NCBI RefSeq assembly: GCF_036365525.1
Contig: NC_090376.1
Location: 104,019,924-104,083,923, forward strand
Reading direction: 5' to 3'
Length of the DNA stretch: 64,000 bases
Origin: Heterodontus francisci
Taxonomy: Eukaryota
A program made the translations under genes and the position numbers. Of this stretch, positions 8,810-57,846 are shown piece after piece. Position 1 is the first letter of the stretch; each line of letters starts with the position of its first letter. The notes below the pieces were generated by a model. It made no database searches, was not told the origin of the DNA, and was given only the letters and a program-made list of their open reading frames with translations.

Positions 8810-10599
8810 ATAAATAGGGCATTTTCAAGTTGGTAGGCAGTAAATAGTGGAGTGCCATTTGGATCAGTGCTGGAGCCTCAGCTATTTACAATCTATATTA
8901 GTGACTTAGGTACATTACTTTCTGTCTCCATCTAAGTTTGTGGATGATACAAAGATAGGTGGAAATGCAAGCTGTAGGGAGGACACAGAGGTTGCAAAGA
9001 CATATAGATAGGTTAAGGGAGTGGACAACAAGATAGCAAATGGAGTATAATTTAGGGAAGTCTCAAGTTATTCACTTTGATCATAAGAACAGAAAAGCAG
9101 AACATTTTTTAAAAGGTGTGAAACTCGTAAGTGTTGAAATTCAAAGAAACTGAGATGTGCTTGTACAAGGAACATGAAGTTAGCATGCAGGTACATTAAG
9201 CAATTAGGAAGGCAAATGGCACGTTGGCCTTTATTGCAAGGGGATTGGAGTACAGGAATAAAGAAGTCTTGCTACAATTATACAGGGTTTTGGCAAGACC
9301 ACATGTGGAGTACTGTGTGCAGTTTTGGTTTCCACATTTAAGAAAGGATATACTTGCATTGGAGGCTGTACAGCTAAGTTTCATTAAATTGGTCTCTCGG
9401 ATGAAGGGGTTGTCTTACGATGAGACGCTGAGGAAATATGCCCATGTTCTCTGGACTTTAGAAGAATGAGAGGTGATCCCATTAATACATACAAGATTCT
9501 GAAGGGTCTGGTTAGGGTATATGCTGAGAGAATGTTTCTGAAACACTGTGGCACAGTCTCAGGATCAGGGGCTGATCATTTCGGACTGAGATGAGGAGAA
9601 ATTACCACTCAAATGGTTGTGAATCTTTGGAATTCTGTACCTCAGAGGGTTGTGGATGGTCCATCATTGAATACATTTAAGGCTGGGATAGATAGATTTT
9701 TGGTCTCTCGGGGAATCAAAGGATATGATGAGCTGGTAGGAAAGTGGAATTGAAGCCCAACATCAGCCATGATCATATTGAATGTTGTCCACGTCGGGGT
9801 CCTGTGGGGTGAACTCAGGGTGCTGGCTAATGGAGGGAACTGTTACAGTCACAGGGGCCAATTGAATTTGGTGGCGGGGTGGGGTTGGGGTGGGGTTGGG
9901 GTGGGGGAGGGGGAGGTCAAGACTTAAGGATAGGAATTCGTTTGCATCACAGGCAGGGGAACGTGACTCAGCAATGATACTGAGGAGGAGTTTTGGAGGT
10001 TCAAGGGTGACAAAATCGGCATTTTGATGGTTACGGGTGTAGGAACAGGGGGGAGGGATGGCACGAGTAAGTTTACAGTCTGAGGTAATGGGGGGAGGTT
10101 CAAGGGTCACAGATGGAAGGTATAAGGTAACATTGGGTGGGTCAAGGGTAATGCATGCAGGCTGGAAGGTGGCAGGAGGTGGTTGGAAGGTGGGGAGACT
10201 TGCCTTGGTTGTCACACGCACCATTTTTCCAAATGATACTGGAAACCATATGGCCATTCAAGGAGTACCAATTGATTGGGAGGAGATCAATGTTGGGTGG
10301 GTGAATTTCAGTGTGGATATAGTGTTAGGCACACACAAGCTACCTGCTCATTACTTCAATGGTAGAGCTGCATGGCAAAACAAGGGTGATTTCTAATGCA
10401 GGTCTCATTCTAACCGTTGCAAAGCTGCAAGGACATGGGTCTCATACACCCAATACTTCTATTACAATGGGAAGAGGAGCAGAGAATGTGACTGAGGAGG
10501 GCTCTTGCAGTTCAGCGGCTGATGCCACAATGCCAGCAGCAGGCAGCACAAGAGGATGAAGCTGCTCGGAATGATGCATCCAGGGAAGGCATTATAGAA

Positions 10600-11560
10600 G
10601 ACAGGTGCTGATGCATCAGTGAGGACAAGGACAAACTATCTTCAGATGTCAGAAAGGCTATGCCAGATACGTCTGAGCATGTCACGTGAGATGATCACTG
10701 AAATTTGTAGGATCATTCAGCATGACCTGCAACCACATGGTTTTGGTGGGAATCCCAAGACAGTTGCCCTCAGGGATCCTGTTGCACTGAATTTCTTTGT
10801 TAGTGGTGCTTTCCAGGGCTCAACAGGCAACATATGTGGCATCTCACAGGCTGCTACTCCTAGGTGCATCAATGAGGTGACCAATGCCCTATTCCATCGT
10901 GCCAATGATTTCACCTACTGCCCTGTAGATGAGCACAGCCAGGCAACAAGGTCTGCGCCCTTCGGCACAAATTGCTTATTTCCCTAGATTGCAACGGGTG
11001 ATCGACTGTACTCGTGTAGCCATTGGAGCTCCCTGGGAGCAGCCTACTGGATTTGAGAATCGTAAAGGCTTTTACTCTTTGAACATTTAATTGGTTTGTG
11101 ACCACAGGTGAAAATTCATGCAGGTCTGTGTTCATTTTCCAGGGAGCTGTCATGACTCATACATTTTGCAAAACTGACAGCTACCAGGGAGTTTTGAAGC
11201 ACCAGCCCAAGCTGACGGGTGTATCCTGGGTGACCAGGGTTATTCCCTTTGGACATGGTTAATGGCACCAGTGCGGCATCCTCAAAGTGCAGCTGAACAT
11301 TCATACAATGCTGCTCACCCATCCACCAGAGCCGTTAACAAACATCATTGGCTTGCTAAAAATGCACTTCTGCTGCCTTGACCAGAAGACTCTTCAGTAG
11401 ACACCACAGAGGATCTCACAAATAATCATCATCTGCTGTGCACTGCACAACATGGCAATGCAACGTGGACATATTTTGTAGGCAGAGCAACGGGAGGAGT
11501 AGCAGTCCTCCTCAGATGAGAATGAATATGAAGAGCCCGAGTAGGAAGCAACTGATGTGA
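10600..11560 (+). pseudogene. Harbinger DDE transposase (HARBI1-like) pseudogene
   Basis: ALNFFVSGAFQGSTGNICGISQ, VIDCTRVAI, NRKGFYSLN, FPGSCHDSYIL, GDQGY and CCALHN motifs, with stops and frameshifts. Confidence 0.88.
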
Positions 11561-12372: not shown

Positions 12373-14880
12373 TTACCGTGGTGGGCGTCCTCGACAGGTA
12401 TGGGGCTTGAGGGCTCCATCCGCCTGGGGGTCTCCAGCACTGGTGTAGGAGCAACCCCCTTGGGCTTGTCTGCAGGACGTACGAGGGTCAATGTCAGGGG
12501 GAGGGGAAGATAAGACACTCCTTACTCTAGGGGTGTCCTGAGAGGAAGGCCCCGGGGCAGCTGGCACATGCTCCTCCTCCATCTGGGTGCACGATGGCAT
12601 CTGCTTGTCTCCCTGAAGGGAAGGGGTACCCAGAGGGATGTCCAGGTTCCTCGTTGCCCTCTTGCTTAGACACCGCTGCATAGAGCTCATGGCTACAGCA
12701 ATGGAGTGCATGTCAGAGCACATATGGGACACGTGCTCAACCAGATTCACCTCAGGGCTTGCCTAACTCTCAAAAGAAGCAGCCATATGCTCATATGCCT
12801 GGGACATGACAGACATTACAGCTTGCATGGACTCCTCCATGGCACACGCAAAGCCACGCATGACCTCAGGCATCTCCAAGATACTTTCTCCACAATTTCG
12901 CTGCACTTCCAGCAGACTTCTTGGAGCCTCAAACAGAGGATCATTATCAGTGTGAAGCTGAGCAGGGGTCTGGTCGCCAGCAGACCTCTGATTGACAGGG
13001 GACCCAGCTGTAACATGCTCCCTCAACTGCTGGGCCATGTCTGTGTCATGTCCACCAGATTGCGACCCTGCTTATCTCCAAATCCCTGTGGACCATTTGG
13101 ATGTATCTGCACTAGGGAGGTGGAAGAAGAGGCAGGTGATGGTGCACCCTTGGGGGCATTGGCAGCATCATTCCCAGAGGTGTTGTTTTGGGTGTCACGG
13201 GGTTCTGTTGCTCGAGTGCAGGCACCTGCGGTGGAAAAACAGAGTGTCACACACACAACAAGTGGACTCTGAAGAGTTATAAAAAACTGACTTTGTCTTT
13301 TAAAAATTAACCTTTATTTTGAAAAGTGATCAAATGGCCGCTAAAGAGAAAAGCTTGGCCTTTGTGTATTCAAACTGTCTGACAAGGATGAAGGATAAAA
13401 CTTCAAAGCTAAGAGGTGTCAACTGAACCCATCCTACACCCGTCTTAAAACATTCCAAAATGACCTGGGCCATTTTGCAATCACCTTGGGGAAGAGACCA
13501 GACCGTTTCCCACGAGCAGGCAAGAAGTAACACAGCTTTAAAAAAAGACAGCTTAGAAAGACAGTAGCCAGAGAGAGAGAGAGAGAAGGTACATCCAGAA
13601 GCTTGTTTTCCAGCAAGCCAGAAGGCACATGCCCTGCTGTAGAATCCTGCATCTGCACTAGACAGCAGTGAACTAGAAGTGTCCCACAGTCTTCAACTGC
13701 ACTTTCAAATCAAGCGAGAAATCTACAATCATCTCAGGCCTGCATCCATTGAGAACTTGATTTCCAAGAGAATTCAGCAGGTTTATCATGACCTCCCCCC
13801 CACTAAAAATCACTTTCCCTCTTTTCCCCTCTCGACCTGTCTTTTCGTCTGTTTGTGTGTGTGTGTGCATGCGTGTATTCGTGCGTGTGCATACACAAAT
13901 GCTTGAATGCTTGAGTAAAAGCAGTTGCAAAAATTTCAGGATAAGGCGTATTGATTAATAAACAATTGATTTTCTTTTTTTTAAAATCAACAAGAAAACC
14001 TGTCGCTCTCTGTTTGTTCGAAAAATAAAGCAACAAGGGGTTAAACCCCAATATCAAAATACACTTGCTGCAGTAAGGTGAGGAGATGAACAGTGGGAAT
14101 CACCCAGATCACATCACGTGGCCGTAACAAAAGGCACATTAAGCATCATCACATCATGAGGTCAACACTTTTTCACACGTTCCTCCTGTGTTCACATATG
14201 GCTGCAACAGTAAATTTCATACTTCATTCTTGCGTCTGGACATCCTGCCTCGCTGTCTGCAATCACTCTACCTCCCTCCTCTCCAGCTGTCTCTGCTGCC
14301 TCCTCCTCTACTGGCATCAGGATTCTTATGTTCAGGCATTCCTCCACCTGTTTTGGTCCACTCCCTTTGGTTGTGGGATTGTTCTTCTGACAGGAGAAAG
14401 TGCAGATTTAATGGCATGTCAAATGATGCCTCACACTCATTGTCTAAATGCATCGATATTCGGAACGGTCAGTCGAACACTGCATCCAAGCACAAATATA
14501 TGCCAGACTTACACACTCTGCACAATCATTTGGTATACGGCACCAAGGCTGATCATGCATTCGAATGGATGCCACGACTGCCCACTGTCATAAACACAGT
14601 CTCACGGAAGCAAAGAGAAAAACACTTTTACAACATCGGAAACATCACCTACCCTTGCTTATCTGGGCATGTCATTGAGATGTTTCCGACACTGTAACCA
14701 GGTGCTACAAGGGACCCCACGGTTCGTACCTCCTCCGCCACATCCATCCAAGTCCCCTTGGTCAGGTGTGAGGGTCTTCTGAGTCCATCCCTTGGGAAGA
14801 GGACCTCCTGTCTTTCCCTGACAGCCTGGAGGAGAACCTGCAAGGAGGCATCACTCAACTGTGGGGCGTGATGCTGCCTG
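12373..14880 (-). pseudogene. Spliced Harbinger Myb/SANT-like DNA-binding protein pseudogene (three exons)
   Basis: Exon 1 ~14880-14653 (SDASLQVLLQAVRERQEVLFPRDG..WMDVAEEV; donor GTAGGT). Exon 2 from ~14386 (HNQREWTKTGGG). Exon 3 from 13225 (acceptor ttttccaccgcag). Confidence 0.75.
13275..14129 (+). repeat. Solo LTR in an intron of the Myb-like gene
   Basis: Ends gtaaca; imperfect 4-bp TSD gaag/aaag; (TG)n tract and AATAAA; architecture like the other LTRs in the window. Confidence 0.6.
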
Positions 14881-16796
14881 CCATTGGTGTGGGTGGTTAT
14901 GGCAGCAGAAGTTAAGTCTGAAGGGGAGTTGGTGCTGGGTGGGAGAGATTGCTGTGAATGAGGAAGGGTAAAACAAACTGTTATATTAATGATTATTTTC
15001 TGCTGATCCTGCATGCTTACGGAATTATTTATAACTATGCTGTTAATGATGCTTTGAGGATCAACGGTGGGTTCCACCAATGAAAATCCATGCCCGCCAC
15101 AGGAACAGTGATTTATATTTGTAATCATGGGGAAACGACAAAAGGGCGGTAGTGGAAGTGCTGTCAAGTTCCGATTCCGCTGTCAGGAACACCGCGAGAT
15201 GCATAAAATACCGTCTAATAACTCTGTTTCTCCTTTCACAGATGCTTCCAGACCTGCTGAGCATTTCCAACATTTTCTGTTTTTATATCAAAGGCGACTC
15301 ATGGGCATGTTCCAGGAAATGCTCGGTGCATCAGGCAGTCTGCCAACAAGCTTGCACGCAATGGCTCAGAGCACAGATGATTCCAGCTCCACTTTGTGTC
15401 AAGCCTTCATGCAGAGGTGATAATGTGATAAGATGTGATAATTTACAAAGATAGGAGAAGACAAGAGAGCAAGGTAGCAATAAGGGAATTAATAATCTGA
15501 GTGTGACAGGAAGGGAAGATTGGAAGGAAGCAAAACTGGTAATAGGAAGTCGAAAAGTAATAAGCAAATTTAGAAGACAGTCGGAGCGAAGGCAAGCATC
15601 AAATAGAATCAGAATGTGGAATAATGTTAAAGAGACAGAGTTAAGGGCATTCTATCTGAATGCATGCAGCATTTGCAACAAGGTAGATGATTTGAAGGCA
15701 CAAATAGAGGGAAATGGGTATGATTTAATTCTAATTACAGAAACGTTGTTACAGGGTGACAAAGACTGGGAACTGAATATTCAAGGACATTCGTCATTTA
15801 GGAAGGATAAGCAAAAAGGAAAAGGAGGTGGGGTTGCATTCATAAAAAGGGATGGGATCAGTACGTTAGTGAGAGAGGATCTTAGATCGAAGGAGCAAGA
15901 TGTAGAATCAATTTGGGTGGAGCTAAGAAACAGCAAGGGGCAGCAACCATTAGTGGGAGTTGTTTATGGGCCATCAAACAGTAGTAGTAATGTTAGGCAT
16001 GGCGTAAATCAGGAAATTAGAGGTGCATGTACCATGAGTACTATATTAACAATGGGCCATGTCAATTTACATATAGACTGGGTCAACCTAATGCTGTGGA
16101 AGATGAATGCCTGGAGGGTGTATGAGATGGGTTTCTGGAGCAGTATGTTGAAGAACCTACTAGGGATTTGGCTATTTTAGATTTAGTATTATGTAATGAG
16201 AAAGGGTGAATTAATAAACTTGTTGTAAAGGAGCCTTTGGGAAATAGTGGCCATAATATGACAGAATTTTATATTAAGTTTGAAAGTGCTATTGTTCATT
16301 CTGAAACTACGGTCTTAAATCTGAACAAAGGAAACTGGCAAGTTGGCTATGGTGGATTGGGAAAATACACTAAAAACATTTGACTGCAGATAGGCAATTG
16401 CTAGTATTTAAAAAAGTACTACATGGTCTGCAACAAATGTACATTCCTTTAAGACACAAAAACCCAACAGGAAAGATGAATCAACCGTGGCTAACAAAAG
16501 AAATTAAAAATTGCATTAGATCAAAGGAAGTGGCTATAAGGTTGCCAGAAAAAGTGGTAAGCTGGATGACTGGGAGCAATTTAGAATCCAGCAAAGGCTG
16601 ACGAGAGACTGATAAAGAAATGGAAAGAGAATATGAATGCAAGCTAGCAAGAAACATAAAGGTGGACTGTAAAAGCTTCTTTAGATATGTGAAAAGAAAA
16701 AGATTAGCAAGGACGAAAGCAGGTCCATTACAGGCGGAGACAGGAGAATTTATAATGGAGAATAGGGAAATGGTGGGGAAACTGAACAATTACTTT

Positions 16797-17591: not shown

Positions 17592-17644
17592 TTTGTGTCA
17601 GTCTTCATGGAGAAAGATACTCAAAATCTCCCAGAGATATAAGA

Positions 17645-18745
17645 TTCCCCGCTCTGTGGTTGACAGGGCCATCAACCGTGTCCAACCCATTTCCTGCATT
17701 TCTGCCCTCACCCCTTCCCCTCCCTCCCAGAACTGTGACAGAGTTCCCCTTGGCCTCGCTTTCCACCCCACCAGCCTCCACACCCAAAGGATCATCCTCT
17801 GCCATTTCCGCCACCTCCAGCATGATGCCACCACCAAACATATCTTTCCCTCCCCTCCCCTGTCAGCATTCCAAAGGGACCATTCCCTCCGCGACACCCT
17901 GGTCCACTCCTCCAATACCCCTGAGACCTCGTCCATTTCCCACAGAACCTTCCCATTCAATCGCAGGAGGTGTAACACCTACCCTTTTACCTCCTCTCTC
18001 CTCACCATCCAAGGCCCCAAACTCTGCTTTCAGGTGAAGCAGCGATTTACTTGCACTTCTTTCAATTTAGTATACTGTATTCGCTGCTCATAATGCGCTC
18101 CTCTACACTGGGGAGACCAAACGCAGACTGGGTGACCACTTTGCAGAATATCTCCACTCGGTCCGCAAGCATGATCCCGAGTTTTTGGATTCTTGCCATT
18201 TTACTTCACCACCTTGTTTCCATGCCCACATTTCGGTCCTCAGCCTGCTGCTATGTTCCAGTGAACATCAACGCAAGCTCGAGGAACAGCATCTCATTTT
18301 CCAATTTCAGCCTTCTGGATTGAGTTCAATAATTTCAGGCCATGAGCCCTATTATTTTTTGTTTTTTTATTTATTTTTATATATATATTTATTTTCTTTT
18401 TAATGATTTATTTTTTATCACATGCTAGTCTTAAACTTATTTTTCTTGTTTTTGCTTTTGTACAGAGCTGTTTATTATTCTGTCATTACCACTCTCTCTG
18501 GACTCATGCTTTGTCTTTCGCTACAACTGTTTAGCACTCCATTTGCATTCTATTCCATGACATCTGTGATTAAATCTCTCCCCCCTCCGTCCTATCACAG
18601 TCCTTCCTTCTTGATCTTCTTCCCACAGCCAACCACCCCCCCCACCTTTCACCTGCTCAAAGACTGTTACATTTCTAACTTTTGCCAGTTCTGATGAAGG
18701 GTCACAGACCTGAAACTTTAACTGTTTCTTTCTGCACAGATGCGG
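17645..18745 (+). mobile_element. Penelope-like element 3' part (RT thumb/linker, GIY-YIG endonuclease, pLTR with hammerhead motif), Neptune-type
   Basis: DRVPLGLAFHP..SLRDTLVHS..RRRCNTYPF linker; FTCTSFNLVYCIRCS*CALLYTGETKRRLGDHFAE is a GIY-YIG domain. Confidence 0.88.
18687..18723 (+). ncRNA. Minimal type I hammerhead ribozyme motif (Penelope pLTR)
   Basis: agtt-CTGATGA-agggtc aca gacct-GAAAC-ttt-aact: stem I, core and stem II are present; the stem III palindrome is mutated in this copy. Confidence 0.7.
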
Positions 18746-20523: not shown

Positions 20524-22519
20524 AGGTACAGCAAGTGACTAGGAAGGCAAATGGAATGTGGTCGCTTATTACAAGGAGAATAATAAATAAAAGTAAGGAA
20601 GTTTTTCTACAGCTGTACAGGGCCTTAATGAAACCACATCTGGAGCACTGTGTACAGTTCTGGACTCATTACATAAGAAAGGATAAAACTGCATTAGATG
20701 CAGTTCAGAGAATGTTCACTCAACTGAATCCTGGGATGAAGGGGTTATCTTACGAGGAACGGTTGAGCAGGTTGGGCCTATACCCATTGGAGTTTAGGAG
20801 AATGAGATGTGATCTTATTGAAGCACATATGATTATGAGGGGACTTGACAGGGTGGATACTGGAAGGATGTTTCCATTTATGAGCGAGACTAGAACTAGG
20901 GGACGCTGTTTAAAAATAAGGGCTCTCGCATTTAAGAGAGAGATGAGAAGAATTTTCTTTTTCTCTCTAAGGGTTATTAGTCTGTGGAATTCACTTCCTC
21001 AGAGAGCGGTAGAGGCTGGGTCATTGGATACTTTCAAGGCTGTGTTAGATTCTTGATAGACAAGGGAGTCAAGCGTTATGGGGGGCAGACAGGAAAGTGG
21101 AGTTGAGGCCACATTCAGATCAGCCATGATCTTACCAAATGGCAAAGCAGGCTCACAGGGCTGAATGGCCTACTCCTGCTCCTAATTCGTATGTTTGTAT
21201 GCTCATATTTGCTAGTTTCATGATTTTGAACACCTTTATCAACTCTCCCTGAACCATTTCTGTTCTATGGAGAAAAAACCCCCAGCTTCTTTTGTCTCTC
21301 CATGTAACTGAGGTCCTGCATCCCTGGTACCATTCTGCTCTGCACCATCTCTGAGGCCTTGGCATCCTTCCAGAATTGGGCACAATGGGCCCAATAATAA
21401 TGCAGAGGCGAATAGCGAGGAGGGGTATGGTATTAGCAGTTGGGAAACCCGAAAGAAGTTTGGGCACATGAACATGCCCAATTTCCACACGGATAGCTGA
21501 TTATCATATTACTTCTAGGTTTTGCACCTTCGATATGTGTCAACAGACATGATGCACCAATGGATGAGGCAATCTCAACTCAACTGTTTAAAAATCCAAT
21601 TCAAAGATGGAACTTGGAGGATTAGGAAGTATTTGGAAAGAGACTGTAATGTTAGAACATGGATTCAGTATGTTCAAAGGTTGCACACCTTTTCAACAGC
21701 ACCTCACTTAATTGCTACTGTGCGGACCAAGGAACAGGAAGGAGGTAATCTTCCACAGCAAAGCCAGGAAGAAACCTGCTGCTGTTATCAAGAAGGTATG
21801 GTTAGAGGTGGCTGGAGAGGCCAGCAGCAGAAGTATTGTGCCCCAGATCTGGATCCATTGCAGAAAGTGGATTATGGCCTAATCAGGTCAGGAAAGGTGA
21901 GTATATTTGCAGATTCACCTACATTCTGTAAGGCACAAAAGCAAAATATTGAAGGTGCTGTAAATCCGAAATAAGATCAGAAAATTCCAGAAATATTCAG
22001 GTCAGGCAGTATCTATCGAGAGAGAAACTGAGTTAATGTTTAAGGTCGAGATAACTTGTTGTCAGAAAGTCATCACTGTTCTGATGTTAAATCATTGACC
22101 TGATGGTTGCCGGCCAACAGCATCCCAATAGTTGGAACAAGGATCTGAGAAGCCTTCCTCAACCTCTGCTAGAGCCACAGAGTTTGCACCACATAGGAGC
22201 AGTAGGAAACAGAAACAATAAGCATTGTAATTCATGAAGGGTATGCACAAGTTTGTTTGTGAAAATATTATACTCTTAAGTTTCCTTTTATTCCACAAAT
22301 TTATTAACTTACACCACTTTTCTATGTTGCTGGGTGTCAATTCACCTTTTTAGTTGCTTGTTGATGAATGTGAAGGCATGAATTGATGAGGATCAATAGG
22401 GCAGTGGACAATGAGCAGACAGCAGTTACAGCACTGCTTTGTATCAGTGGGGTGACAGGCAGAGGGGCCAGGGATGTGATTGTTACTTTGGTTCAGCATG
22501 AGTAACTGAACCTTCCAGT

Positions 22520-36104: not shown

Positions 36105-36198
36105 TGAAAGGTCACAGACCTGAAACGTTAACTTAGCTTCTCTCTCCACAGATGCTGCCAGACCGGCTGAGTATTTCCAGCACTTTTTGTTTTTATTA
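36105..36198 (+). mobile_element. Penelope pLTR-derived short insert (partial hammerhead)
   Basis: aggtcacagacctgaaacgttaact...gatgctgccagacc...tttttatt, same family as 36556, 38298 and 52929. Confidence 0.75.
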
Positions 36199-36555: not shown

Positions 36556-36751
36556 ATAAAAGCAAAATACTGTGGATGCTGGAAATCTGAAACAAAAACA
36601 AGAAATGCTGGAATCACTCAGCAGGTCTGGCAGCATCTGTGGAAAGAGAAGCAGAGTTAAGAAGGGTCACTGACCCGAAACGTTAACTCTGCTTCTCTTT
36701 CCACAGATGCTGCCAGACCTGCTGAGTGATTCCAGCATTTCTTGTTTTTGT
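36556..36751. mobile_element. Penelope-derived mini-element with a perfect 70-bp inverted repeat
   Basis: Arms 36591-36660 and 36683-36752 are exact reverse complements; 14-bp TSD tccagcttacttag (36542-36555, 36752-36765). Confidence 0.9.
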
Positions 36752-38297: not shown

Positions 38298-38483
38298 TGT
38301 CCTATCTACACCTTCTCCTTTGTTATCTCTTGCCCCACCCCTGCTTTACTTGCTTATAACCTTTCACATTTCTAATATTTGCCAGTTCTGAAGAAGGGTC
38401 ACTGACCTGAAACATTAACTCTGCTTCTCTCTCCACAGATGCTGCCAGACCTGCTGAGTATTCCCAGCATTTCTTGTTTTTAT
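38298..38483 (+). mobile_element. Penelope pLTR-derived insert with hammerhead motif
   Basis: 13-bp TSD tgcacaactctct (38285-38297, 38484-38496); motif agtt-CTGAAGA-agggtc act gacct-GAAAC-att-aact at 38384-38420. Confidence 0.85.
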
Positions 38484-39370
38484 TGCACAACTCTCTCAGC
38501 TGGCTTTGGTTTCTTCTCAAAACCACTCCCCTAGATGTTGTAATCTCATAGAACCTGGGCTCACCGCACACTCCGGACAACTCTGCAGGCAGCCATGTTT
38601 TCATGACCCTGACCTTTTGTCCTACATGTAGCTGAGGTATTGATTCTGTGCAATCCCTCATTTCCAATTGGTATCATTATTTTTACAGCCTGTTTTACTG
38701 GTTCTGTAATTGTTTGAACATAAGAACTAGGATCAGGAGTAGGCAATTCAGCCTCTCGAGCCTGCTCCGCCATTCAATACGATCATGGCTGATCTCATCT
38801 CGGCCTCAACTCCACTTTCCTGCCCATTCTCCCTAACCTTTCAACCCATTACTAACTAAAAATCTGTCTGTCTCCTCCTTAAATTTACTCAATGTCCAGG
38901 CATCCACCACACCCTGGGGTAGTGAATTCCACAGACTCACAACCCTTTGAGAGAAGTAACTTCTTCTCATCTCTGTCTTAAATCTGCTACCCCTTATCTT
39001 AAAACTATGACCTCTTGTTCTAGATTACCCCACAAGAGGAAACATCCTCTCTATGTCTACTTTGTCAATCCCCTTAATCATCTACATACCTCAATTAGAT
39101 CTCCTCTCATTCTTCTAAATTCCAGAGAGTATAGGCCTAAACTGCTCAATGTCTCTTCATAAGACAAACCCTTCATCTCTGGAATAAATCTAGTGAACCT
39201 CCTCTGAACTGCCTCCAATGCAACTACATCCCACCTCAAGTAATCGGACAAAAACTGTACGCAATACCCCAGGTGCAGTCTCACTAATGCCTTGTACAGT
39301 TGCAGCAACACTTCCCTACTTTTATACTCTATTCCTTTAGCAATAAATGCCAAAATTCCATTTGCCTTCC

Positions 39371-41980
39371 GTTTGAGGACTCGTCTACGGAGGTAGTATG
39401 GGCCGAGGTTAGAAACAGGAGAGGTGAGGTCACCCTGTTGGGAGTCTTTTATAGACCTCCAAATAGTTCCAGAGATGTAGAGGAAAGGATAGCGAAGATG
39501 ATTCTCGACAGGGGCGAGAGTAACAGGGTAGTTGTTATGGGGGACTTTAACTTTCCAAATGTCGACTGGAAATACTATAGTTCGAGTACTTTAGATGGGT
39601 CAGTTTTTGTCCAGTGTGTGCAGGAAGGTTTTCTGACACAGTATGTAGACAGGCCAACCAGGGGCGATGCCACATTGGATTTGGTACTGGGAAATGAACC
39701 CGGCCAGGTGTTAGATTTAGATATAGGTGAGCACTTTGGTGATCGTGATCACAATTCGGTTAGGTTTACCTTAGCAATGGGCAGGGACAGGTATATACCG
39801 CAGGGCAAGAATTATAGCTGGGGGAAAGGAAATTATGATGCGATTAGGCAAGATTTAGGATGTGTAAGATGGGGAAGGAAACTGCAGGGGATGGGAACAA
39901 TCGAAATGTGGAGCTTATTCAAGGAGCAGCTACTGCGTGTCCTTGATAAGTATGTACCTGTCAGGCAGGGAGGAAGTTGTCGAGCGAGGGAGCCGTGGTT
40001 TACTAAAGAAGTTGAAGCGCTTGTCAAGAGGAAGGCGGCGGCTTATGTTAGGATGAGACGTGAAGGCTCAGTTAGGGCGCTTGAGAGTTACAAGCTAGCC
40101 AGGAAGGATCTAAAGGGAGAGCTAAGAAGAGCAAGGAGAGGACACGAGAAGTCATTGGCGGATAGGATCAGGGAAAACCCAAAGGCTTTCTATAGGTATA
40201 TCAGGAATAAAAGAATGACTAGAGTTAGATTAGGGCCAATCAAGGATAGTAGTGGGAAGTTGTGTGTGGAATCAGAGGAGGTAGGGGAAGTGTTAAATGA
40301 ATATTTTGCGTCAGTATTTACAGTAGAGAAAGAAAATGTTGTCGAGGAGAATACTGAGATTCATGCTACTAGGCTAGATGGGATTGAGGTTCACAAGGAG
40401 GAGGTGTTAGCAATTTTGGAAAGTGTGAAAATAGATAAGTCCCCTGGGCCAGATGGGATTTATCCTAGGATTCTCTGGGAAGCCAGGGAGGAGATTGCAG
40501 AGCCTTTGTCCTTGATCTTTATGTCGTCATTGTCGACAGGAATAGTGCCGGAAGACTGGAGGATAGCAAATGTTGTCCCCTTGTTCAAGAAGGGGAGTAG
40601 AGACAGCCCTGGTAAATATAGACCTGTGAGCCTTACTTCGGTTGTGGGTAAAATGTTGGAAAAGGTTATAAGAGACAGGATTTATAATCATCTTGAAAAG
40701 AATAAGTTCATTAGCGATAGCACGGTTTTGTGACGGGTAGGTCGTGCTTCACAAACCTTATTGAGTTTTTCGAGAAGGTGACCAAACAGGTGGATGAGGG
40801 TAAAGCAGTGGATGTGGTGTATATGGATTTCAGTAAGGCGTTTGATAAGGTTCCCCATGGTAGGCTATTGCAGAAAATACGGAAGTATGGGGTTGAAGGT
40901 GATTTAGAGCTTTGGATCAGAAATTGGCTAGCTGAAAGAAGACAGAGGGTGGTGGTTGATGGCAAATGTTCATCCTGGAGTTTAGTTACTAGTGGTGTAC
41001 CGCAAGGATCTGTTTTGGGGCCACTGCTGTTTGTCATTTTTATAAATGACCTGGAAGAGGGTGTAGAAGGGTGGGTTAGTAAATTTGCGGATGACACTAA
41101 GGTCGGTGGAGTTGTGGATAGTGCCGAAGGATGTTGTAGGGTACAGAGGGACATAGATAGGCTGCAGAGCTGGGCTGAGAGATGGCAAATGGAGTTTAAT
41201 GCGGAAAAGTGCGAGGTGATTCAGTTTGGAAGGAGTAACAGGAATGCAGAGTACTGGGCTAATGGGAAGATTCTTGGTAGTGTAGATGAACATAGAGATC
41301 TTGGTGTCCAGGTGCATAAATCCCTGAAGGTTGCTACCCAGGTTAATAGGGCTGTTAAGAAGGCATATGGTGTGTTAGCTTTTATTAGTAGGGGGATCGA
41401 GTTTCGGAGCCACGAGGTCATGCTGCAGCTGTACAAAACTCTGGTGAGACCGCACCTGGAGTATTGCGTGCAGTTCTGGTCACCGCATTATAGGAAGGAT
41501 GTGGAAGCTTTGGAAAGGGTGCAGAGGAGATTTACTAGGATGTTGCCTGGTATGGAGGGAAGGTCTTACGAGGAAAGGCTGAGGGACTTGAGGTTGTTTT
41601 CGTTGGAGAGAAGGAGGAGGAGAGGTGACTTAATAGAGACATATAAGATAATCAGAGGGTTAGATAGGGTGGATAGTGAGAGTCTTTTTCCTCGGATGGT
41701 GATGGCAAACACGAGAGGACATAGCTTTAAGTTGAGGGGTGATAGATATAGGACAGATGTCAGAGGTAGTTTCTTTACTCAGAGAGTAGTAGGGGCGTGG
41801 AACGCCCTGCCTGCAACAGTCGTAGACTCGCCAACTTTAAGGGCATTTAAGTGGTCATTGGATAGACATATGGATGAAAATGGAATAGTGTAGGTCAGAT
41901 GGTTTCACAGGTCGGCGCAACATCGAGGGCCGAAGGGCCTGTACTGCGCTGTAATGTTCTAATTCTAATTCTAATTCTAA
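39371..41980 (+). mobile_element. Young 5'-truncated CR1 with near-intact ORF2
   Basis: Open frames 39372-40733 and 40730-41893 (APE C-terminus, RT PQGSVLGP/FADDTK), one frameshift, (TTCTAA)n tail. Inserted antisense in the older CR1. Confidence 0.95.
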
Positions 41981-46749: not shown

Positions 46750-47590
46750 TCACTTTGCTCCACCGGTGGATTCTGTGACCGGCAAACATGCAGTTTCTTT
46801 GTGACTTGCACTTTCTTTCTGACTTTCTCTTGGGACTATAGGAATTTGGAGAATAGAAGGGTTCTCATGCTCTCTCTTTGTCAGATTTCCTCTTTTAAGC
46901 AATTGATCTACATGACACTGACAGAATCTCTCCCTAATCGTCACTAGATATGTGAATGCACCTAGTCTTTTTACAACAACTTCAAACACATACTTCACCT
47001 TATTACCGCTGTGGTTTTTCACCATGACCTTCTGACCTGCACTTAACTCTCTAAGTTTCATGCCATGAGTATCATGACTCATCTTCACTCTGTCTTGCTT
47101 TTCTCTTACTTTTTTATTGACATCAGGCTTAAGCAAACTAAACCTTGTCCTAGGATTGTGTTTAAACACTAACTCATAAGGTAAGCAACCTGTTGTAGAC
47201 AGTGGGTTATTCTTTAAGAGAACATGGAAATTACTACCTAGCCTGTTGCCTAGCAAATACTTCTGCGAGGGCCGCTTCACAATTTGTACACTTCTTTCTG
47301 CAGCACCATTTGATGCTGGGTGATATGGTGGTATTAAAGTATGTTTGACTCCATTCGTACTCAGAAATATTTCAAACTCTTCTGACGTAAACTGTGGACG
47401 ACTATCTGACAATAAAACATTTGGCGACGTATAAATTGCAAACCAACTTCTCAAAACCTCAACAGATTTGGCATTCACGCTATTGTGCACAAACTTAACA
47501 TTTATCCACTTGCCATAGCTATCAACTAAAACAAAATACTCCTTACCTTCCACTTCAAAGAAATTAACCTGTATTCATTCCCACAGTTTC
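46750..47590 (-). pseudogene. Gypsy integrase core fragment
   Basis: VLVDSYGKW..LLSDSRPQFTSEEF..PPYHPASNGAAERSVQ; continues past the MITE to ~48370. Confidence 0.85.
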
Positions 47591-52627: not shown

Positions 52628-52928
52628 AGGATATCGACTATGAAATTGTGAAAAAAATGTACAGAGCAACACTGGGTCTAAAACAATGCAGAGCAACACT
52701 GGGCGGAATCTTGTGACTGCTGAGGCATTCCTGACGGTGGGACCAGAAAAGTTCTTGTGTTTCCCATGCGATTTTGTATTTAAATTAGCCATGCGGCGAC
52801 AGACACGGGGAACAGGTGGGATCATGCAATGGGGGAGGCCTTTCGCTCTCAACAGCTTTGGAAACCATTGAAGACACATGAATGCCAACAGACAAAATTC
52901 TCCTACAGTGAACAAGGTTTAAGAAGAA

Positions 52929-53117
52929 CAAAAGAAAATACTGCGGATGCTGGAAATCTGAAATAAAAACAAGAAATGCTGGAAATCCTCAGCAGGTCTG
53001 GCAGCATCTGTGGAGAGAGAAGCAGAGTTAACATTTCAGGTTCTAAAGAAGGGTCACTGACCTGAAACGTTAACTCTGCTTCTCTCTCCACAGATGCTGC
53101 CAGACCAGCTGAAGGGG
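52929..53117. mobile_element. Penelope-derived inverted-repeat mini-element in the 5' LTR
   Basis: TSD taagaagaa (52920-52928, 53118-53126); absent from the 3' LTR (single taagaagaa at ~57407). Arms ~52990-53040 and 53061-53111. Confidence 0.88.
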
Positions 53118-56100
53118 TAAGAAGAATACTGGGCCCCAAAGAAAAGCAAGAATTACCTACAAGCAAGAACTACCTCCAAAAGGACTACAGTGAGCTTGAA
53201 GCACAGTCACAAGAAAGTCTTCTGATATTGCCTCAAACCTCTCGACTTTATTTTTTTCTTCTGCTCTTTTCTGTCTCTATTTGCATGTGTGTATTGCATA
53301 TGCATGCTAGTGTGGTGCATGGCATGTATCGGTAGGCGTTAACTAAATTAGAGTTTAAGTTTAAATTTTAATAAATTTCACTTTTCTTCTTTAAACCGAA
53401 GAAGACCTGTTTGTGCTCATTTCTTTGCCTTATAATTGGAAAGCGGTGAACAAGTATTCACCAAGGGGGAGCTGAAAACACGGTGTGTTTAAATTAAATC
53501 CTGTTACAATAAGACCAGGTGAAGGCTGAAAGAGAACCCTAGACATCTTCCTCAACTGGTCATAACAGAAATTTGGGTTCCAGCATCCGGAATTTGACCC
53601 ACAGACAAACAAGAGAAATTGGAAGTGGGAAACCAAATTGTTCCCAAAATAAAAGAGCAATGTTTTAACACAGGTTTTCTTGAGGTTGTGTGTGATTGAA
53701 TACTAACATGTCTGCAACTGAAGCGCAGGATGGAGTAACTTGGGATAAGTTAAAAGCACTGTCTATGGAGGAGATGAGAAAAATGGCTGAACAGTGTGGG
53801 ATCACTGTACGTGGCAAGGCTAGGAAGTCTCAACTCCTAAGGCTAGTGGCCAACCATTTTCCCTTGAATCTGAAGAAGTAGAAACAGGCTTAGAAGCAGA
53901 ATCCGACAGGGTATTGTTAGCAAAGGTACAATTGGAACAGAGGAAACTTGAATTAGAAGAAAGAGAAAAAGAGAGAGGCAGGAGAGGGAGAAAGAGAAAG
54001 CCTTCCATAAGGAACGGGATGAGAAAGAGAGAGCCTTCCAAAAGGAACAAGAAGAAAATGAAATGCAGGAGAGAGAGAAAGAAAGACAGGAGAAGGAATG
54101 ATAGAGAGAGGAAAGGGAGAAAGAAAGAATATTCCGGAAAGAATGTGACGCAAGTTGAAGCAGCTTGAGCTAACTGAGGGCAACAGAGTAACCCCAGTGA
54201 AAGCACAGCCAATATGGAGGAGCGTAATTCAGGGCTGGGTACAAAATTGCTAAAACTCACTCAACTAATTCCAGAATTTAATGAGGAAGATGTGGAAGCA
54301 CTTTTTGTATCTTTTGAGAAACTGCCAAAGGCAGCTAAAATGGCCAGCTGAGACCTGGTCTATTTTAATACAAAGCAAGCTAACTGGAAAAGCCATGAGA
54401 TTTATTCCTTGTTGCCAGATGAGAGTTCATCAAATTATGAACTGATCAAAAATGCTATCCTCAGGGCATATGAATTAGTACTCCAAGCCTACCACCAAAT
54501 GTTTAGAACCCTCACAAAACAAGCTAATCAAACTTATCTGGAGTTTGAAAGAAGTAAGCAGCTGGCTTTTGACCAATGGCTGAGGGCTCTTAAAATACAG
54601 CTCAGCTATGAGACTCTCAGAGAAGTAATTCTGTTAGAGGAATTTAAAAACTCTCTCCCACGCTCCATAAAGACACATGTCAAGGAGCAGCGGATTCAGG
54701 GAGCCTGGCAAGCGGCCGTTCTGGCCGATGAGTTTGCTTTAATTTATAAGTCGGTTTCCCAGGGAAGAACCTTTCCTAATCACCCCCACAAATCCAAAAA
54801 GGACAAAGGTAGGGAAGGAGATCTCCGGCGAAGCAGTCCTGGGAGCAAAAGGAAATTAGGAGACACAAGGGGCCCTCCTCCAGCCAAAAAGGAAGGCGCT
54901 GTGAGCAAGAGTGAGACCTGGAGACCTGTGTGCTTCCATTGTAATAAGGCAGGGTATTTAAAAGCTGACTGCTGAAAACTAAAGGGGAAACCGGTAGGGT
55001 TAATCAGGCCACACCCGCTCAGTAAAGACGGGACCTGATGGAAAGTCCAGCAGAACGAGCTGTGGCTTTAACTGCAGTAAGAGTGCAATGCAGTAAGCTT
55101 ACAATGACCAGTGCAGGAAAAGTTAATAGGATTCCTGAAGGTAATCAGGGTTTTTTGTCTGAAGGGAAAGTAACCCCATACCCCTCGGGTGGGGCAAGCA
55201 AGCCCATAGTGAGTCTCAGGGACACAGGGACCAGTAGATCCCTTTTACTGGGAAATGGCCTGACCTTTCCCGCAGAGAGTACAGTGAACACCAAAATGGT
55301 GGTGAATGGCATTGGAGGGTGGAGTATGCCTATACCTGTACACAGGGTGCACCTAGAGTGTGAATCCGTTTCGGGACCAGTGACCGTAGGGATTGTCTCT
55401 AGTTTGCCTGTGGATGGGATTGACCTGTTCCTATGTAATGATCTGGCGAGGGTGAAGGTGGTAGCCCCCACAGTAGTGAAAGAAAGACCGCAGGAGGTCA
55501 GAGAGACAGGGTGGTGGCAGGAGATGGTTCCTGCAGTTTCCCTGAATGTGTAGTGGATCAAGCCATGATCAAACCAGCTCTCCCAGAGGAGACTGCATTG
55601 GCACTGCAGGCAGATGACCATGAGGCCTGCCAGTCTGAGACTTTCTTTGGAAAGTTAGGAAACCCAGGGAATTAATTAAATGGATTTTCCCTAGGTGAGG
55701 CTCAGCGTGCCGACCCAGTTTTGCGAGAGTTAGCACAGGCTGCCCAGTCTGAAAGTGAAGCAGATGGAGTCCCTGATTGCTACTATTTAAAGAATAGGGT
55801 ACTGATGAGGAAATGGAGTTCTCCTCACAGACCTGAAAGCAAGGAGAGGACAGTCGTTCACCAGTTAGTGGTGCCACAGAAATACTGGGGAGAAATATTA
55901 AGAAGGGCCCATGAGACTACAGTGGCTGTACTTGCCGGTATACGAAAGACCAATGCCTGCATAAGACAACGGTTTGACTGGCCAACACTCCATAAAGATG
56001 TGGTGGAGTACTGCAGGAGTTGCCACATGTGCCAGGTTGAGGGAAATCCCAACCTACAGTGAAACCTGTACCTGTAAGTCCTGGACCGGTGTTAGGAGGA

Positions 56101-56913: not shown

Positions 56914-57846
56914 TGTCATGCAGGCCCCCACCTGCCAAGAATGAGACACATATTTCACCACATGAACATTAAAACTTAAAATTGTTGCTGGGATGAAAAG
57001 AGGGCCTATCACAAGGAGTTGCTAAGCCCTTGACTGGAAAGACATTTGCATAGGAACAGACAGTACTTGGAAAGGAAAAAGGGGTCACCTCCTGACACAT
57101 TCAATCCACAATGGCTTTTTGATTACCAGACATTGAGGGTAGAGGGACTCGCATTCCAGGTTAACTGCTAAAATGGCCGAATACACAAACAGACGTGGTC
57201 AGACCAGTTTAATCACATGACTAACTGGCTGTTGGAGGTTTTTGAATTTGAACCTGCCACAGCGTGTTTGAAAGTCAGAAAGCTGTTTACTCCTGGACTG
57301 AAAAGACCTCTCTCCTGTCTGCTCTCTTCTCGTTCTTAACAGCTTCAGAAACCATCGAAGACATATGAACACCAAGAGAGAAAGGTTTCCAACAGTGAAC
57401 AAGGTTTAAGAAGAATACTGGGCCCCAACGAAAAGCAAGAATTACCTACAAGCAAGAACTACCTCCAAAAGGACTACAGTGAGCTCGAGGCACAGTAACA
57501 AGAAACTCTTCTGATATTGCCTCAAACTTCTCCACTTTATTTTTTCTTCTGCTGTTTTCTGTCTCTATTTGCATGTGCGTATCGTGTATGCTAGAGTGGG
57601 GCGTGGCATGTATCGTAGGCATTAACCGAATTAGAGTTCAAGTTTAAGTTTTAATAAATTTCACTTTTCTTCATTAATCCTAAGAAGGCCTGTTTGTGCT
57701 CATTTCTTTGCCTTATAATTGGAAAGCGGTGAACAAGGATTCACCAAGTGGAGCTAAAAACACTGTGTTTAAATTAAATCTGTTACAATAAGACCAGGTG
57801 AAGGCTGAAAGAGACCTCTAGACACCTTTCTCACCTGGTTGTAACC
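56914..57846 (+). repeat. 3' LTR of the Gmr1-like element
   Basis: tgtcatg...gtaac; 57335-57846 aligns with 52848-53567. Confidence 0.85.

What the first reader, a model, noticed from the sequence alone, without database searches (positions are those of the whole stretch)
18687..18723. Minimal hammerhead ribozyme in the Penelope terminal repeat, spread through the window as short copies
Seen: the cross-copy consensus (18687, 36105, 36661, 38384, 53039; degenerate reverse copy ~22030-22070) is AGUU-CUGA(U/A)GA-AGGGUC-NNN-GACCU-GAAACGUU-AACU. Known: this is the type I hammerhead core, and Penelope-like elements carry minimal hammerheads with a palindromic stem III thought to cleave as dimers. 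Inference: cleavage after GUU. No single copy here matches the full consensus.
Basis: partly seen in the sequence, partly recalled or inferred. Interest (0 to 1): 0.7.

Follow-up and report, generated by a model that had tools for sequence, protein, structure and literature searches.

The report
Uncut hammerhead heads shark Penelope stubs
This is the known minimal hammerhead self-cutting RNA motif in the end repeat of a very abundant Penelope-type jumping gene in a shark-like genome; its short copies start sharply at the motif's front edge and carry it uncut, so they are likely copies that ran off the capped start of the element's RNA, and whether the motif still cuts is untested.

Summary
The motif is real. 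It is a minimal type I hammerhead in the pseudo-LTR of a Neptune-type Penelope-like element (12,481 exact 33-nt copies genome-wide, 0 control). All five window copies have a damaged or missing core or stem III. This kind is published (Cervera 2014).

The copy ends add something:
- 15 of 53 unselected 5' ends lie within 3 nt of the first base of stem I; none lies clearly in the 80 nt upstream. Genome-wide: 5,836 versus 42.
- An initiator, a TATA-like box at -29 and extra G point to a capped RNA start there.
- 3' ends fall at two tail sites, 68 and 104 nt past the cut site.
- Dispersed copies show no pile-up at the predicted GUU cut (3' ends 19 versus 21).

So the uncut RNA is the template. Subfamilies keep the fold by compensatory changes, but younger ones carry U17 and U4C, so cleavage may be weak. 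A 68-bp subtelomeric satellite runs from the cut site to the first tail end. This scan noted the run-off reading before, in this and other genomes.

The parts
17643..18743 (+). 5'-truncated Penelope-like element (family A): end of RT thumb, Cys-rich linker, broken GIY-YIG endonuclease, 3' UTR/pseudo-LTR; tail cut off 24 nt past the cut site by a CR1-like piece
   Evidence: 81% to near-full-length copy L084 over 17643-18525; 40 scored genome hits at 80-84% out of 8,279 candidates; CR1-like piece from 18744 matches 42047-41992
18687..18723 (+). Minimal type I hammerhead motif: stem I 18687-90/18720-23, core 18691-97, extra A 18698, stem II 18699-703/18707-11 (G.U closing pair), GAAA 18712-15, predicted cut between 18719 and 18720; G16.2>U at 18717 breaks the stem III palindrome
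   Evidence: monomer MFE is exactly stems I+II, -6.6 kcal/mol; relaxed descriptor hit
18684..18690 (+). Initiator-like site; predicted RNA start at 18687 or 18688 (inferred from where short copies begin); this subfamily has no TATA box at 18655-18663
   Evidence: 5'-end statistics; upstream words; initiator consensus recalled
38298..38483 (+). Pseudo-LTR copy (subfamily B1) from -121 to the first tail end; TATA-like box 38355-38359; hammerhead 38384-38420 with G16.2>A; 13-bp target duplication 38285-97/38484-96
36105..36197 (+). Short copy (A-U closed stem II, older A0 type) starting at -25 inside a CR1 remnant; lacks C3-A6
36556..36751 (.). Head-to-head double insertion: minus arm with long tail reaching -2, plus arm from -26 with short tail (G-C closed stem II, young B2 type); 14-bp target duplication 36542-55/36752-65
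52929..53117 (.). Head-to-head double insertion: minus arm reaching -12, plus arm starting at -32 (53040) with G5>A; 9-bp target duplication; empty paralogous site at about 57395-57420
21935..22104 (.). Old inverted pair: minus arm with degenerate hammerhead 22068-22031 and tail; degenerate plus-strand motif start at 22078
15219..15290 (+). Tail-only copy beginning within 1 nt of the predicted cut site

Best explanation
The motif is a minimal type I hammerhead in the pseudo-LTR of a Neptune-type Penelope-like retrotransposon; it likely forms the first 37 bases of the element's capped RNA, and the short copies are likely cDNAs that began at one of two tail sites and ran off that capped end with the ribozyme uncut. 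Shown: the motif, its host element, the hard 5' boundary, the two 3' ends, 12-14 bp target duplications, and the lack of a pile-up at the cut site. Inferred: a promoter in the upstream pseudo-LTR starts RNA at the A or G of stem I; the element protein binds the tail and primes from a nicked target, often on both strands, giving head-to-head pairs with one long and one short tail. Predicted, untested: cleavage at GUU needs two motifs paired through the 4-6 nt palindrome or the element protein, is slow, and would decap the RNA and so switch it from message or template to a spent form. The copy at 18687 itself is likely inactive.
For: Host element: EN+pLTR query gives 8,279 candidates; L039 shows pLTR, tail and ORF start in tandem; the RT is 32-33% identical over about 400 aa to a PF00078-positive RT of a second family. 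5' ends in 943 kb of unselected DNA: 15 of 53 at -35..-30, 0 clear and 1 ambiguous at -36..-115, 14 long. Genome counts 5,836 at -33..-31 against 42 at about -41 (about 100-fold after rough filter correction). Same edge in 20 of 30 family C loci, whose upstream sequence differs and has no AG (by eye). In the 100 rows listed (counted by eye), -32 is G in 86, and G precedes an AG start in 19 of 47, or 19 of 27 without element-derived junctions, against about 27% expected. Exact 8-nt reiteration of the 5' end: 55 against 0 control. TATA-like words at about -29 in B1, B2, C and part of A0. 3' ends of 171 held copies cluster at +66..+76 (77) and +101..+109 (64), like the two RT starts in PMC11167929. 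32 of 40 head-to-head pairs have one long and one short tail, none two long. Structure kept across subfamilies: pair 10.1-11.1 is A-U, G.U or G-C; 10.2-11.2 is G-C or A-U; an unrelated family keeps the core with wholly different stems.
Against: No RNA end was seen: the 21 runs offered were contigs only. Extra G can also come from terminal transferase activity (own knowledge). Family A, the one at 18687, lacks a TATA box. In D. virilis the start lies 46 nt before a 75-nt intron whose end meets helix I (PMC2377424, PMC4209133), so a cap-proximal ribozyme is not universal. For catalysis: U17 in A and B against C17 in 22 of 32 family C copies, G.U at 10.1-11.1 in A and B1, U4C linked to the G-C pair in 21 of 29 readable edge copies and 5 of 10 unselected copies; the intermolecular stem III is worth only -1.7 to -3.5 kcal/mol and no predicted dimer MFE is the active fold. 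Pfam did not recognise 7 of 7 decayed A/B fragments or the 4 window fragments.
Confidence: 0.65

Rival explanations
1. The motif no longer cuts in the young lineages and is kept as a protein-binding or promoter element of the pseudo-LTR. This is compatible with the run-off model.
For: Shift from C17 to U17 and to U4C in younger subfamilies; no cut-site footprints in dispersed copies; catalytic mutants did not affect insertion in vitro (PMC11167929); U4C lowers activity in vitro (PMC3088659, passage).
Against: The youngest subfamily has the canonical G10.1-C11.1 pair; ten of eleven core positions, the extra A and the palindrome are unchanged across six groups; U4C still supports viroid infectivity (PMC3088659, passage).
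Confidence: 0.3
2. The 5' boundary is not a transcription start but the place where a 5'-3' exonuclease stops at, or the RT leaves, the folded and protein-bound ribozyme in a read-through RNA.
For: The boundary coincides with the base of stem I in families with different upstream sequence; family A has no TATA box.
Against: Extra G and the initiator and TATA spacing fit a cap; stem I is only 4 bp; an RT moving 3' to 5' would stall at the 3' side of the fold.
Confidence: 0.15
3. Cleavage is frequent and central: the ribozyme cuts unit-length RNA from tandem transcripts, and the cut RNA is the template.
For: Single cases end at the site: a family T junction amplified in 18.7-kb subtelomeric units, 57-nt and 29-nt tandem units in L345 and L342, the 68-bp satellite; 4-5 of 53 unselected 5' ends at -2..+2 against about 2.3 expected.
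Against: 3' ends at the site 19 against 21 at +7, and 8 of the 19 are another element inserted at TTAA; 5' starts at +1 are 316, many being deletions or stem I microhomology joints, against roughly 180 true starts at +5; 5 of 40 shorter arms at -2..+4. Nearly all copies span the site.
Confidence: 0.1
4. The short copies are a separate SINE- or retrozyme-like family that spreads from its own master copies.
For: Very high copy number, fixed ends and target duplications.
Against: Each short type has the same diagnostic letters as a long pseudo-LTR subfamily; no shared 5' flank; monomers are dispersed, not tandem units each with a core as retrozymes are defined (bioRxiv 10.64898/2026.07.22.740005).
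Confidence: 0.07
5. The boundary is a 3' splice site (branch-point-like word plus CAG just before the core), as in D. virilis Penelope.
For: Families A and B have an acceptor-like sequence there; PMC4209133 maps the D. virilis intron end to helix I.
Against: Family C lacks the AG yet starts at the same place; copies keep the G of the AG (86 of 100); no common upstream exon in 30 edge loci.
Confidence: 0.04

Closest known systems
Minimal hammerheads of metazoan Penelope-like elements (Cervera and De la Pena 2014, PMC4209133; parts 1-2 of 4 read)
   Same: Type I, in the pseudo-LTR, short helix I, extra base between 9 and 10.1, palindromic 15.2-16.2, thousands of solo copies from truncated elements, sequence families with covariation.
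   Different: Sharks are not named in the parts read; G.U or A-U at 10.1-11.1, U17 and U4C here; that text does not map copy ends or place the RNA start at the ribozyme.
Poseidon element PAc of Anolis carolinensis (Frangieh et al. 2024, PMC11167929; parts 1-2 of 4 read)
   Same: Two internal RT starts about 35 nt apart that define the tail, both strands extended, uncut RNA as dominant template, no RNA ends found at the cut site.
   Different: Poseidon clade; ORF starts inside the ribozyme, whereas here the likely start codon is about 125 nt past the cut site; cleavage was shown there with protein and is untested here.
Neptune/Nematis endonuclease-positive PLEs (Craig et al. 2021, PMC8557442; passages)
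   Same: RT then CX2-5CxxC linker then GIY-YIG, partial tandems, inverted 5'-truncated copies, optional tail.
   Different: Clade placed by motif only; no tree against named references.
Animal non-LTR retrozymes (bioRxiv 10.64898/2026.07.22.740005; part 1 of 5 and passages)
   Same: Non-coding, derived from PLE pseudo-LTRs, type I hammerhead.
   Different: Retrozymes are tandem units each with a full core; the short copies here are dispersed monomers and the 68-bp satellite unit has no core.
D. virilis Penelope and Adineta Pen2a pseudo-LTR promoters (PMC2377424, PMC3846280; passages)
   Same: Promoter inside the pseudo-LTR; TATA plus initiator-like words in Adineta.
   Different: D. virilis start lies about 120 nt before the ribozyme; the Adineta passages do not relate the start to a ribozyme.

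Membership tests
Minimal type I hammerhead of PLEs | Core CUGANGA and GAAA with stems I and II | tested here: met
   met by the A/B1/C/T subfamilies, with U4C in most B2 copies
Minimal type I hammerhead of PLEs | Unpaired base between positions 9 and 10.1 | tested here: met
   A in 141 of 143 parsed copies and in family T
Minimal type I hammerhead of PLEs | G10.1-C11.1 pair | tested here: inconclusive
   met in B2, C and T; G.U in A and B1 (the 18687 copy), A-U in A0
Minimal type I hammerhead of PLEs | Palindromic 15.2-16.2 for dimer pairing | tested here: met
   C-G in every subfamily, decaying as a CpG; broken in the 18687 and 38384 copies
Minimal type I hammerhead of PLEs | Location in the pseudo-LTR of a PLE | tested here: met
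Minimal type I hammerhead of PLEs | Self-cleavage as dimer or with protein | not testable with these tools
   only contigs available; genomic footprints not in excess
Neptune-type EN+ PLE | RT followed by C-terminal GIY-YIG domain | tested here: met
   RT similarity E 1e-63 to PF00078-positive family T RT; GIY-YIG-like motif read in L039 and L012 frames; no direct Pfam hit on A/B fragments
Neptune-type EN+ PLE | CX2-5CxxC linker between RT and EN | tested here: met
   C-x4-C-x2-C in L039, L012 frames; definition from PMC8557442
Neptune-type EN+ PLE | RT groups with named Neptune elements in a tree | not tested
   no named reference set fetched
Non-LTR retrozyme | At least two consecutive tandem units each with a complete hammerhead | tested here: not met
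   window and sample copies are dispersed; satellite unit lacks the core; L345 has three cores in tandem but two lack the 3' arm of stem I
Rfam hammerhead families | Covariance model hit | tested here: not met
   none among 21 matches at E<=10

The most novel reading that the evidence does not exclude
The ribozyme cut and the cap together set template boundaries for a telomerase-like RT. The RT starts in the tail; at the capped end it can jump to the cut 3' end of a downstream pseudo-LTR through the shared 33 nt, a retrovirus-like strand transfer that would give full-length copies; on a cut RNA it runs off at +1 and restarts at +68, and repeated rounds seeded a 68-bp satellite now spread over several chromosome ends.
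Probability: 0.15. Interest if true: 0.8.

Novelty: new member of a known kind. Interest (0 to 1): 0.46.

Why it matters
The role of the hammerhead in Penelope-like elements is open (PMC8557442 calls it unclear; PMC11167929 found it dispensable for insertion in vitro). Here some 280,000 insertions (rough estimate from 44 in 943 kb) map the template: it starts at the ribozyme, is copied uncut, and begins at two tail sites. That gives exact constructs and exact RNA ends to test. A ribozyme at the cap would act as a decapping switch, not a unit-length cutter. The subfamily series (C17 to U17, A-U to G.U to G-C, U4 to C4) is a natural allelic series for asking whether cleavage was tuned down as the element became more successful.

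Tried and rejected
Rfam scan: no hammerhead model hit; the miRNA-like hits are the head-to-head arms. Pfam on decayed A/B fragments: no informative hit. RNA: 21 runs, all contigs, best share 0.24; four laid, family sequence present in all four organisms, depth highest over the tail, but ends cannot be read. Pile-up at the cut site: not found for 3' ends, 5' starts at +1 (the +5 control is swamped by a CT slippage deletion, about 13 of 100 rows are true starts), 5' starts at -2 (only about 21 dispersed rows on C1-C3, 7 of them beside another element; no matched control was run) or inverted arms (loci picked by a cut-site junction were left out). Telomeric giant element: the 18.7-kb subtelomeric unit holds fragments of a second PLE and a CR1, no long ORF set, and lies over 35 kb from the telomeric repeats, so it is read as a segmental repeat. 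Type III fold with a cut just before stem I: needs GUC, which families A and C lack. DPE-like role of the palindrome: spacing differs by 3 nt between families with the same 5' edge. Further +68-to-internal restarts in held loci: none. Lunse et al. 2017 and Arkhipova et al. 2017 were not held; only their titles were seen, and they or unread supplements may already describe shark variants or copy ends.

Full report
Numbering used below: the predicted cut lies between -1 and +1 (GUU|AACU); the first base of stem I is -33.

Observation. The sequence at 18687-18723 has stem I, the core, an extra A, a 5-bp stem II and GAAA as described. The other cited copies exist. A descriptor without the stem III test finds 18687 and 38384 and nothing in 100 shuffles; with it, no window copy passes. 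Rfam does not detect the motif.

Host element. The 18687 copy ends a 5'-truncated element from 17643 to 18743 that is 81% identical to a near-full-length copy. The genome is 6.0 Gb; the endonuclease-plus-repeat query had 8,279 candidates, 40 scored. Locus L039 shows pseudo-LTR, tail and ORF start in partial tandem. The RT is 32-33% identical over about 400 residues to a second family's RT that hits PF00078. A C-x4-C-x2-C linker and GIY-YIG-like motif follow, the Neptune/Nematis layout of PMC8557442 (passages). 'Shark-like' is my reading of the CR1 content, genome size and earlier scan notes; no call names the organism. An exact 33-nt pattern occurs 12,481 times, control 0. An HMM finds 54 hits, 44 insertions, in 943 kb of unselected DNA, about 280,000 genome-wide as a rough figure.

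Is the fold under selection? Clustering 80 long copies gave subfamilies at 14% (C, A0), 7-10% (A, B1) and 3% (B2) divergence. Pair 10.1-11.1 is G-C in C, A-U in A0, G.U in A and B1, G-C in B2; pair 10.2-11.2 is A-U in C and G-C elsewhere (143 of 185 copies parsed, sample biased by the search patterns). An unrelated family T has the same core, extra A and palindrome with different stems and GUC. Within 29 family A loci, stem I has 3 changes against 13 expected (P 0.001), the core 11 against 17.7 (P 0.06), stem II 23 against 20; most copies are decaying neutrally, so this mainly reflects the master lineages. Against full activity: position 17 is C in 22 of 32 family C copies but U in A and B; U4C travels with the G-C pair in 21 of 29 readable edge copies and 5 of 10 unselected ones, and U4C lowers activity in vitro (PMC3088659, passage). 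The intermolecular stem III is -1.7 to -3.5 kcal/mol and the predicted dimer folds are not the active form.

5' ends. Of 53 usable hits (one cut by a locus edge was dropped), 15 start at -35..-30, one is ambiguous at -39/-33, none clearly at -36..-115, 14 extend past -115, and the rest scatter from -27 to +23. Genome-wide, starts at -33..-31 number 5,836 against 42 at about -41 (filters of 4 and 5 non-native letters). In the 100 listed rows -32 is G in 86; extra G is enriched before the start (19 of 47 AG starts; by eye). Fifty-five copies repeat the first 8 nt exactly, control 0, as expected at a hard template end. Family C shows the same edge in 20 of 30 loci and has no AG acceptor. TATA-like words sit about 29 nt upstream in B1, B2, C and part of A0 but not in A (this check was prompted by an earlier scan note). 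The site fits the recalled initiator consensus.

3' ends and geometry. 3' ends of 171 held copies cluster at +66..+76 and +101..+109; 20 of 74 simple copies gave a clear target duplication, 15 of them 12-14 bp. In 32 of 40 head-to-head pairs one arm has the long tail and the other the short; none has two long. This matches the two internal RT starts and two-strand extension of the Anolis element (PMC11167929).

Cleavage footprints. 3' ends at the site: 19 against 21 at +7, and most of the 19 have other causes. 5' starts at +1: 316, of which 10 of 30 inspected are inverted arms joined through stem I complementarity and about 8 are small deletions or insertions, against about 180 true starts at +5. 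So under about 1% of copies start or end there, with no clear excess. Single cases do fall on the site: a family T junction, tandem units in L345 and L342, and a satellite. One search gave 9,487 matches, and 79 of the 100 listed are in or at arrays near the ends of C3 and C4. The unit is 68 bp, 94% matched, from +1 to +68 with 2 nt of ambiguity. L355 holds 25 units between a partial ribozyme and the long tail; L356 holds two units with a 12-bp target duplication. 44 of 354 units match the pattern, so the satellite has tens of thousands of units. These are few founding events, found by patterns aimed at the site, so chance or DNA slippage is not excluded.

RNA. Only contigs were available; the family is present in four organisms' runs, but ends cannot be read.

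Model. A promoter in the upstream pseudo-LTR likely starts RNA at stem I. The protein primes in the tail and runs off the capped end, giving 100-140 nt insertions with an uncut motif. Longer copies come from read-through or tandem RNA. Cleavage, if it occurs, needs a partner or the protein and would remove the cap.

Prior knowledge. The motif and its solo copies are described in PMC4209133 (parts 1-2 of 4). I found no paper placing the RNA start at the ribozyme or describing cap run-off copies, but two relevant papers were not held and no supplements were read. Other papers seen: bioRxiv 10.64898/2026.07.22.740005 (part 1 of 5 and passages), PMC2377424, PMC6765202, PMC3846280 (passages). Earlier notes of this scan give the same run-off reading in this and other genomes, and 66-bp tail arrays in other genomes; they are not independent support, and my reading was recorded before I saw them.

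Verdict. Real feature, new member of a known kind; interest 0.46 for the mapped template ends and the testable allelic series.

Noticed in passing
G000:C4:0.40 Mb, 1.22 Mb and 1.70-1.73 Mb; C3:214.25-214.33 Mb; loci L350-L356: 68-bp subtelomeric satellite made of the pseudo-LTR piece from the predicted cut site to the first tail end; no catalytic core; L355 and L356 show it embedded in a normal short copy.
   Followed up: partly
G000:C1:68,400-120,000 (L137-L142) and ends of C16, C23, C25, C32, C37, C40: 18.5-18.8 kb subtelomeric tandem unit, 99% identical, oriented to the chromosome end, holding a CR1 and fragments of a second Penelope-like family whose hammerhead stops exactly at GUC and is joined without homology to an RT fragment.
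   Followed up: partly
L110, L113, L115 at 1495-1540: Intact family T hammerhead with 6-bp stem I and GUC site, preceded by an initiator-like word and followed by an acceptor-like polypyrimidine-CAG.
   Followed up: partly
L039:375-505; window 38417-38438: Acceptor-like sequences (branch-like word, pyrimidine run, CAG) just after the cut site and just before the likely start codon; no donor lies between the predicted RNA start and them.
   Followed up: no
L345:1460-1640 (minus strand); L342: Tandem units of 57 nt and 29 nt that end exactly at the predicted cut site inside head-to-head insertions.
   Followed up: partly
L332, L335, L336, L338, L341, L346, L347; window 18897: Another repeat, probably a DNA transposon, inserted at the TTAA that spans the cut site in 7-8 copies; its end also occurs in the window.
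   Followed up: no
window 39288-41893 and 1340-1971: Young CR1 LINE with long open frames (481 and 390 aa) and a 98-100% identical 3' piece 40 kb away.
   Followed up: no
window 54352-56062 and 46750-47574: LTR-retrotransposon remnants (SCAN/gag-like, protease-like, integrase-like frames); labels from recalled motifs, not from a call.
   Followed up: no
window 10598-10987 and 14649-15182: Harbinger-like transposase and Myb/SANT-like fragments; labels recalled.
   Followed up: no
window 52880-53470 and 57360-57750: Local duplication about 4.3 kb apart that supplies the empty site for the 52929-53117 insertion.
   Followed up: yes
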